Source of the DNA: Escherichia coli | GTDB taxonomy: Bacteria; Pseudomonadota; Gammaproteobacteria; Enterobacterales; Enterobacteriaceae | Assembly (NCBI RefSeq): GCF_003334405.1 | Contig: NZ_QOWM01000001.1 | Direction: 5' to 3' (one strand) | DNA: 64,000 nucleotides | Program-made: the position numbers and the translations under genes | In this document: positions 13,824 through 13,932 of the stretch, in pieces | How the letters are laid out: each line of letters starts with the position of its first letter | Numbering within the stretch: the stretch's first letter is position 1 | Notes under the pieces: generated by a model | What the model was told of the DNA's origin: nothing | Database searches by the model: none | The model's input: only the letters and a program-made list of their open reading frames with translations

Positions 13824-13932
13824 TTAACCCTCCGTTTCACTTCTCATTTCTGCCATTCCATTGCCGTTGATAAAGAGTTTATCTGTTAATCTGTAAATTG
13901 ATGTGAAAACTCTTAGCAAACAGGATAATGCA

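What the first reader, a model, noticed from the sequence alone, without database searches (positions are those of the whole stretch)
13824..13932. Possible PhoP-type direct repeat in the pmrD promoter
Upstream of pmrD the sequence GAGTTTATCTGTTAATCTGTAAATTG contains TGTTTA-like hexamers at roughly 11-bp spacing, resembling a PhoP box. The match is imperfect, so this is only a candidate.
Basis: inference. Interest (0 to 1): 0.2.

Follow-up and report, generated by a model that had tools for sequence, protein, structure and literature searches.

The report
Known PhoP box of pmrD promoter

Summary
The window is E. coli chromosome (menC-menE-pmrD, then arnFET on the minus strand). Its TGTTTA-like hexamers (AGTTTA 13876, TGTTAA 13884, TGTAAA 13892) are 8 and 16 bp apart, not 11. 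In every register the string scores 0.25 bits or less on a PhoP weight matrix.

The only 11-bp-spaced pair in the intergenic region is CGTTGA (13865-13870) and AGTTTA (13876-13881). This 19-mer, CCGTTGATAAAGAGTTTAT (13864-13882), scores 13.26 bits with the pmrD sites left out of the matrix, rank 2 of 127,964 positions in the window. It lies exactly 12 nt upstream of a -10 hexamer, TAAATT (13894-13899).

Position for position it is orthologous to the Salmonella pmrD PhoP box, whose footprint and mapped start site come from earlier work cited in the paper read. It is the best upstream hit in all 10 related Escherichia, Citrobacter and Salmonella loci.

The same sequence is listed as the E. coli pmrD PhoP binding site in Harari et al. 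2010. PhoP-dependent, low-Mg2+ expression of E. coli pmrD is published.

Verdict: a real but already known class II PhoP-activated promoter. Interest is low.

The parts
12468..13823 (+). menE coding sequence (context). Its stop codon at 13821-13823 starts the intergenic region.
   Evidence: ORF list; RefSeq annotation of identical E. coli records.
13864..13882 (+). PhoP box as a 19-mer, CCGTTGATAAAGAGTTTAT, in direct orientation relative to pmrD.
   Evidence: Scores 13.26 bits on the matrix with pmrD left out, rank 2 of 127,964 window positions. Listed as 'pmrD: CCGTTGAT---GAGTTTAT E. coli' in Harari et al. 2010, Fig. S2. Best upstream hit at the same position in 10 of 10 related loci.
13865..13870 (+). 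Upstream half-site CGTTGA (4/6 to TGTTTA).
   Evidence: T13867 and G13869 are invariant and T13868 nearly so across 11 Escherichia, Citrobacter and Salmonella sequences. It aligns with the Salmonella half-site TATTGC.
13876..13881 (+). Downstream half-site AGTTTA (5/6).
   Evidence: GTTTA at 13877-13881 is the longest invariant run in the intergenic alignment. About 20% of E. coli genomes carry GGTTTA here.
13882..13893 (+). 12-nt spacer between the box core and the -10.
   Evidence: The length is the same in all 11 sequences. Twelve nt is the defining distance of architecture I PhoP promoters.
13894..13899 (+). -10 hexamer TAAATT.
   Evidence: T13894, A13895 and T13899 are invariant across three genera; the orthologous hexamers are TAACTT, TAACGT and TAGCGT. 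It aligns with the Salmonella -10 TAACGT of Zwir et al. 2012, Table 2.
13905..13906 (+). Inferred transcription start. Not mapped here.
   Evidence: Inferred by homology. The Salmonella pmrD start (S1 mapping attributed to Kato et al. 2003 in the paper read) is listed with a -10-to-+1 distance of 5 and a 27-nt leader. E. coli has one extra leader base, giving G13905 and a 28-nt leader. A13906 is invariant.
13922..13925 (+). Shine-Dalgarno AGGA, 7 nt before the start codon.
   Evidence: Read directly from the sequence.
13933..14199 (+). pmrD coding sequence (88 aa, Pfam PF11183). The start is the second of three ATGs at 13928, 13933 and 13938.
   Evidence: The start-site array and use of the second ATG are described in bioRxiv 10.1101/2021.07.26.453917.

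Best explanation
This is the known PhoP-activated promoter of E. coli pmrD. At low Mg2+, the sensor PhoQ phosphorylates PhoP. A PhoP dimer then binds the direct repeat CGTTGA-N5-AGTTTA (13865-13881). That repeat sits where a -35 hexamer would be, 12 nt upstream of the -10 TAAATT (13894-13899). The promoter has no usable -35 of its own: TAAAGA at 17-bp spacing matches 3 of 6 positions, and the good TTGATA sits 21 bp away. Bound PhoP therefore recruits sigma-70 RNA polymerase in the class II manner, and transcription starts near 13905 with a leader of about 28 nt. The result is the small connector protein PmrD. Shown here: the sequence anatomy, the matrix score, the phasing and the conservation. 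Taken from papers: the site listing and PhoP and low-Mg2+ dependence in E. coli. Inferred by homology with Salmonella: the start site and the class II contact.
For: (1) The 19-mer 13864-13882 scores 13.26 bits on a matrix of 45 published PhoP sites with pmrD excluded. That is within the range of the published sites (10.95-22.4 bits, bar one outlier) and ranks 2 of 127,964 positions. (2) It is the only 11-bp-spaced hexamer pair in the intergenic region. (3) Of the 34 window sites scoring 9 bits or more, it is the only one of 13 bits or more with a TAnnnT hexamer 12 nt downstream. (4) MAFFT aligns it without gaps, base for base, to the Salmonella pmrD PhoP box CTATTGCCGTTTTGTTTA(T/C) and its -10 TAACGT. 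That promoter is architecture I, with the box 12 nt from the -10. (5) In all 10 related loci the best matrix hit in the 140 nt upstream of pmrD lies at the same place, 49-50 nt before the ATG. GTTTA of half-site 2, T.G of half-site 1 and T, A and T of the -10 are invariant. (6) Harari et al. 2010 list exactly this sequence as the E. coli pmrD PhoP binding site. (7) E. coli pmrD is expressed in low Mg2+ in a PhoP-dependent way, including from the native promoter on a plasmid. (8) The segment 13855-13935 is at least 99% identical, mostly 100%, in 3826 of 5426 complete E. coli genomes.
Against: By motif score alone the site is no better than chance for a 64-kb window: 2 hits observed against about 2 expected. 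Both half-sites deviate from (T/G)GTTTA. I could not read the primary E. coli paper (Winfield & Groisman 2004). So whether this exact 19-mer was footprinted or only predicted rests on a secondary listing. The E. coli start site was not seen in any data here. One paper notes that pmrD can also be induced independently of PhoPQ. No terminator separates menE from pmrD, so read-through transcription may add to expression.
Confidence: 0.9

Rival explanations
1. The PhoP box is the repeat the first reader described: AGTTTA (13876) paired with TGTTAA (13884) and/or TGTAAA (13892).
For: All three hexamers resemble TGTTTA at 4-5 of 6 positions, and the segment is well conserved within Escherichia.
Against: The spacings are 8 and 16 bp rather than 11. 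Matrix scores for these registers range from -20 to +0.25 bits. TGTAAA overlaps the conserved -10, so PhoP bound there would block RNA polymerase, whereas PhoP activates pmrD. The hexamer at 13884 changes to TGCTAC or CGTTGA in Citrobacter and Salmonella, while the true half-site stays invariant.
Confidence: 0.02
2. The 13864-13882 match is coincidental. PhoP dependence of pmrD would then be indirect, or pmrD would be transcribed mainly by read-through from menE.
For: About 2 matches of this score are expected per 64 kb by chance. No intrinsic terminator lies between menE and pmrD, and no consensus sigma-70 promoter was found on the + strand.
Against: The box and the -10 keep the same position and phasing in three genera. 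The orthologous Salmonella site is reported as footprinted and its start site as mapped. The sequence is listed as an E. coli PhoP site. Lack of a consensus -35 is what an activator-dependent promoter should show.
Confidence: 0.05
3. The 8-bp tandem ATCTGTTA/ATCTGTAA (13881-13896) is a binding site for some other regulator of pmrD.
For: The two copies match at 7 of 8 positions, and the segment is nearly invariant within Escherichia.
Against: The tandem is not kept in Citrobacter (TCTGCTACTGTGTAAC) or Salmonella (CCCGTTGATGTGTAAC). Only TGTAA, adjoining and within the -10, is conserved. No known motif was matched. A two-copy, 8-bp repeat is easily chance.
Confidence: 0.03

Closest known systems
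Salmonella enterica pmrD promoter (architecture I PhoP-activated promoter; Kato et al. 2003, Zwir et al. 2012)
   Same: It is orthologous base for base. The PhoP box is in direct orientation at the same distance from the ATG, 12 nt upstream of a TAAnnT -10. The leader is about 27-28 nt. The second half-site is strong and the first degenerate. A TTGnnn hexamer sits 21 bp from the -10, too far to serve as a -35.
   Different: The first half-site is CGTTGA in E. coli and TATTGC in Salmonella; the second is AGTTTA against TGTTTA. Salmonella has an xTTAAT-N5-xTTAAT PmrA-type repeat about 35 bp upstream (ATTAATGTCAGGTTAAT in the arizonae and diarizonae loci). The window allele has no such match within 2 mismatches.
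Canonical E. coli PhoP boxes of mgtA, phoP and yrbL ((T/G)GTTTA-N5-(T/G)GTTTA)
   Same: Hexamer direct repeat with an 11-bp period, overlapping the -35, with the class II arrangement.
   Different: The pmrD box is much weaker: 13.3 bits against 17-22 bits for mgtA, phoP and yrbL on the same matrix. Harari et al. place it in a lower-information submotif group.
Klebsiella pneumoniae pmrD promoter
   Same: pmrD expression depends on PhoP, a semi-conserved PhoP box lies upstream, and PhoP binds the promoter in gel-shift assays.
   Different: No Klebsiella locus was recovered here, so the sequences were not compared. That promoter is reported to lack a PmrA box and not to be repressed by PmrA.

Membership tests
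PhoP box / PhoP-activated sigma-70 promoter, architecture I (class II) | Direct repeat of two (T/G)GTTTA-like hexamers separated by 5 nt. | tested here: met
   CGTTGA-TAAAG-AGTTTA at 13865-13881 matches 4/6 and 5/6. It scores 13.26 bits on the matrix with pmrD left out, within the range of published sites.
PhoP box / PhoP-activated sigma-70 promoter, architecture I (class II) | A single box in direct orientation, 12 nt upstream of the -10 hexamer and overlapping the -35 position. | tested here: met
   The core ends at 13881 and TAAATT starts at 13894, a gap of exactly 12 nt. The definition is from Zwir et al. 2012.
PhoP box / PhoP-activated sigma-70 promoter, architecture I (class II) | Poor intrinsic -35, so that the promoter depends on the activator. 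| tested here: met
   TAAAGA at 17-bp spacing matches 3 of 6. The consensus promoter scan finds nothing on the + strand. Salmonella pmrD has 5 mismatches in its -35.
PhoP box / PhoP-activated sigma-70 promoter, architecture I (class II) | Conservation of the box and its phasing in orthologous promoters. | tested here: met
   The position is the same in 10 of 10 related loci, and GTTTA and the key -10 bases are invariant.
PhoP box / PhoP-activated sigma-70 promoter, architecture I (class II) | Physical binding of PhoP-P to the site (footprint, gel shift or ChIP). | not testable with these tools
   Only the secondary listing of this sequence among literature-reported PhoP sites is available. The primary papers are not held.
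PhoP box / PhoP-activated sigma-70 promoter, architecture I (class II) | PhoP- and low-Mg2+-dependent transcription. | not testable with these tools
   Reported for E. coli pmrD in PMC2565834, PMC3140997 and bioRxiv 10.1101/2021.07.26.453917.
PhoP box / PhoP-activated sigma-70 promoter, architecture I (class II) | Mapped start site that places the box at about -25 to -41. | not testable with these tools
   A start near 13905 is inferred from the Salmonella start site reported from S1 mapping. No E. coli start-site data were reached.
PmrA (BasR) feedback box in the pmrD promoter, as in Salmonella | A YTTAAK-N5-YTTAAK direct repeat upstream of the PhoP box. | tested here: not met
   There is no match within 2 mismatches between 13733 and 13935 of the window. 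Salmonella loci carry ATTAATGT(C/T)AGGTTAAT at -102.

The most novel reading that the evidence does not exclude
E. coli carries two pmrD promoter alleles. About 79% of complete genomes have the window (K-12) type, with half-site AGTTTA (13.3 bits) and no PmrA-like repeat. About 20% have the AF10 type, with half-site GGTTTA (15.9 bits) and ATTAAG-N5-ATTAGT 45 nt upstream of the box. The two could differ in PhoP responsiveness and in PmrA feedback. That would make the strength of the PhoPQ-to-PmrAB connection, and so low-Mg2+ polymyxin tolerance, a strain-dependent promoter trait.
Probability: 0.15. Interest if true: 0.35.

Novelty: already known. Interest (0 to 1): 0.07.

Why it matters
PmrD links the Mg2+-sensing PhoPQ system to PmrAB, which drives lipid A modification and polymyxin tolerance, and the PhoP box is the entry point of that link. 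It is already described for E. coli and Salmonella, so this check adds no new biology. The within-species promoter polymorphism is a small lead for anyone studying strain differences in polymyxin tolerance.

Tried and rejected
(1) I first read the E. coli sequence as the Salmonella box with a 6-bp insertion (ATTGCCGTT...GTTTAT). The alignment showed no gap: the two boxes align base for base, so I dropped this.

(2) The consensus sigma-70 scan found no + strand promoter. It found one chance-level hit on the minus strand at 13949-13922, with 1 found against 0.8 expected. That is uninformative for an activator-dependent promoter.

(3) The primary papers could not be read because they are not held: Winfield & Groisman 2004 (PMC534605), Kato et al. 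2003 (PMC153620), Zwir et al. 2005 (PMC548500) and Minagawa et al. 2003 (PMC161583).

(4) The Shigella pmrD preprint marks the PhoP box only in a figure image, so it gives no sequence.

(5) The PmrA-box scan found nothing near pmrD in this window. Window-wide it is at chance level: 51 matches against 42 +/- 6 expected.

(6) The Cell Reports 2026 paper uses a PpmrD reporter but gives no site detail.

(7) One Python call did nothing useful.

(8) The genome-collection scan returned no Klebsiella or S. enterica subsp. enterica locus. Salmonella is therefore represented by the arizonae and diarizonae subspecies plus the published LT2 box.

Full report
Setting. The window around the finding is E. 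coli chromosome. The ORFs are menC (11509-12471), menE (12468-13823) and pmrD (13933-14199, 88 aa, Pfam PF11183), followed by arnF, arnE and arnT on the minus strand. The 701 bases 13600-14300 match 5420 of 5426 complete E. coli genomes, several at 100%, with those gene names. The finding's interval, 13824-13932, is the whole menE-pmrD intergenic region.

Checking the observation. The quoted string GAGTTTATCTGTTAATCTGTAAATTG is at 13875-13900. Listing every + strand hexamer with at least 4 of 6 matches to (T/G)GTTTA gives AGTTTA at 13876, TGTTAA at 13884 and TGTAAA at 13892 inside the string. These are 8 and 16 bp apart, not about 11. The only pair at 11-bp spacing in the intergenic region is CGTTGA (13865) with AGTTTA (13876). 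Its first member lies outside the quoted string.

I built a 16-column log-odds matrix (8 + 8 bases, with the 3 central bases ignored). The input was the PhoP sites printed in Fig. S2 of Harari et al. 2010 (PMC2908699). After removing duplicates and both pmrD entries, 45 sites remained. The 19-mer CCGTTGATAAAGAGTTTAT (13864-13882, + strand) scores 13.26 bits. That ranks 2 of 127,964 positions in the window and falls inside the range of the published sites (10.95-22.4 bits, apart from one outlier).

Is that more than chance? For the window as a whole, no. The per-position probability is 1.3e-5, about 1.6 hits are expected, 100 dinucleotide shuffles give 2.06 +/- 1.3, and 2 were observed. For the 109-bp intergenic region, yes. 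The expectation is 0.002 under an independent-base model, and only 1.2% of 5000 dinucleotide shuffles of that AT-rich region reach the score. So the weight of evidence comes from where the site sits, not from the motif score alone.

Anatomy. The box core ends at 13881. Exactly 12 nt later comes TAAATT (13894-13899). Among the 34 window sites scoring 9 bits or more, this is the only one of 13 bits or more with a TAnnnT hexamer 12 nt downstream. Twelve nt from the -10, in direct orientation, is the definition of the architecture I PhoP-activated promoters (mgtA, phoP, yrbL, slyB, pmrD, orgB) in Zwir et al. 2012. That paper predicts class II behaviour for them because the box overlaps the -35. 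The -35 position here reads TAAAGA (3/6) at 17-bp spacing. The good TTGATA lies 21 bp from the -10. This is the same oddity as Salmonella pmrD, which has CCGTTT at 18 bp and TTGCCG at 21 bp. It explains why the consensus promoter scan finds nothing on the + strand.

Comparison with relatives. A profile of ten PmrD proteins recovered 10 loci from one-genome-per-species contigs. They are E. coli, an Escherichia species, E. albertii, Citrobacter amalonaticus and relatives, and S. enterica subspecies arizonae and diarizonae. The upstream regions align without gaps across the promoter. The E. coli box CCGTTGATAAAGAGTTTAT lies on the Salmonella box CTATTGCCGTTTTGTTTAC. The latter is the published LT2 box CTATTGCCGTTTTGTTTAT with one change. 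TAAATT lies on the Salmonella -10 TAACGT.

Several positions are invariant across all 11 sequences:
- T13867 and G13869 in half-site 1.
- GTTTA at 13877-13881 in half-site 2, the longest invariant run in the intergenic region.
- TGTA at 13892-13895, and T13899, in and next to the -10.
- A13906.

In every locus the best matrix hit within 140 nt upstream of pmrD is at this same position. It ends 49-50 nt before the ATG and is followed by 11 nt and TAAATT, TAACTT, TAACGT or TAGCGT.

Literature. Fig. S2 of Harari et al. 2010 lists 'pmrD: CCGTTGAT---GAGTTTAT E. Coli' among PhoP binding sites collected from the literature and from that group's earlier work. That is exactly 13864-13882. [quoted passage not shown] For Salmonella, Zwir et al. 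2012 cite Kato et al. 2003 for footprinting of the box and S1 mapping of the start site, and tabulate a -10-to-+1 distance of 5 and a 27-nt leader. I could not open the primary E. coli paper or three other primary papers. Whether the E. coli 19-mer was itself footprinted is therefore taken on secondary authority.

Mechanism. The steps are marked as established, shown or inferred:
- Established knowledge: at low Mg2+, PhoQ phosphorylates PhoP.
- Anatomy shown here, binding from the literature listing: a PhoP dimer binds the direct repeat at 13865-13881.
- Inferred from architecture I and from mgtA, as described: from the -35 position it recruits sigma-70 RNA polymerase to the -10 at 13894-13899.
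- Inferred by homology: transcription starts near G13905 or A13906. E. coli has one more leader base than Salmonella.
- Read from the sequence and: the roughly 28-nt leader carries AGGA (13922-13925), and translation starts at the second of three ATGs (13928, 13933, 13938).

I put 0.9 on this reading. Together they get about 0.1, for the reasons given in their entries.

Variation within E. coli. The segment 13855-13935 is at least 99% identical in 3826 genomes and 95-99% identical in 1152. Over 141 nt there are two allele classes. The window (K-12) type is found at 95% identity or more in 4290 genomes, and a second type (strain AF10) in 1095. The second type reads CCGTTGATAATAGGTTTAT, with half-site GGTTTA and a score of 15.9 bits, and differs strongly from the window type just upstream, from about 13815 to 13850. 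Differences within the box fall in the central spacer and the first base of half-site 2. One Escherichia species has T to C in half-site 1, which drops the score to 6.8 bits.

Comparison with the known, and verdict. The element meets every sequence-level criterion of an architecture I PhoP box. It is the site already catalogued for E. coli pmrD. It lacks the upstream PmrA-type repeat that Salmonella has. That fits the published statement that the PmrA feedback loop on pmrD is absent in E. coli. Novelty: already known. Interest is low.

Noticed in passing
window 13815-13850; L009/L010 at -102 from the pmrD ATG; L001, L004-L008 at -114: Salmonella loci carry ATTAATGT(C/T)AGGTTAAT, a PmrA-type xTTAAK-N5-xTTAAK repeat, about 35 bp upstream of the PhoP box. 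Citrobacter has ATTAAG-N5-ATTAAT, and the AF10-type E. coli and E. albertii alleles have ATTAAG-AAATC-ATTAGT, about 45 bp upstream. The window (K-12-type) allele has no match within 2 mismatches. The motif is weak and matches occur at chance level window-wide.
   Followed up: partly
window 13795-13935 against L013 (strain AF10) 1-141: E. coli has two pmrD promoter alleles. The window type is found in 4290 complete genomes and the AF10 type in 1095. The second has half-site GGTTTA (15.9 bits against 13.3) and a divergent menE-proximal segment.
   Followed up: partly
window 23049-23087, + strand, upstream of the yfaZ-like ORF (ATG 23197): The best PhoP-matrix hit in the whole window is TTATTTAAGAAGTATTTAG (23068-23086, 15.3 bits), with a second hit at 23049 (11.8 bits). 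The same bases match the PmrA pattern with 1 mismatch (23071-23087). The box abuts a TACAAT hexamer instead of lying 12 nt from it. A paper reports YfaZ among the most overexpressed envelope proteins in colistin-exposed, mgrB-deleted Enterobacter hormaechei.
   Followed up: partly
window 21642-21658, - strand: CTTAAGGTTAAGTTAAT matches the PmrA box pattern with 1 mismatch. It lies about 70 nt upstream of the ORF ending at 21576 on the minus strand (probably arnB). From my own knowledge of the arn operon, I would expect the BasR/PmrA site there.
   Followed up: no
L015 (strain EC12) 2058-2144, equivalent to window ~13912; also hit H1 (strain EC-107): In strain EC12 the match to the window promoter stops at about window position 13912, and IS66-family element genes follow in place of pmrD. 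This looks like an insertion in the pmrD leader, between the inferred start site and the Shine-Dalgarno. In strain EC-107 an IS1 element interrupts the 13600-14300 region.
   Followed up: partly
window 13928-13940: Three ATGs 5 nt apart (13928, 13933, 13938) each open a different reading frame; pmrD uses the second. A preprint describes this array and a 1-bp insertion in S. flexneri that abolishes PmrD production.
   Followed up: no
window 13594-13612 and 13590-13605, inside menE: CGGTTTTGCAGGTGTTTAT scores 13.0 bits on the PhoP matrix, 270 nt upstream of the real box. It overlaps a terminator-like hairpin inside the menE coding sequence. It is probably chance, being one of the roughly 2 hits expected per window.
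   Followed up: no
window 13824-13932: The scan finds no intrinsic terminator between the menE stop and pmrD. Read-through from the men genes could therefore give PhoP-independent basal pmrD transcription. One paper mentions PhoPQ-independent induction of pmrD.
   Followed up: no
L001 (DXKH01000101.1, 3.1 kb) and L007 (DXKH01000056.1, 235 kb): One metagenome-assembled genome labelled Citrobacter sp. HRGM_Genome_0066 holds two pmrD loci. One is Citrobacter-like (59% identity to the E. coli protein) on a long contig. The other is 94% identical to E. coli PmrD, on a 3-kb contig with the AF10-type promoter. The short contig is probably Escherichia contamination of the bin.
   Followed up: no
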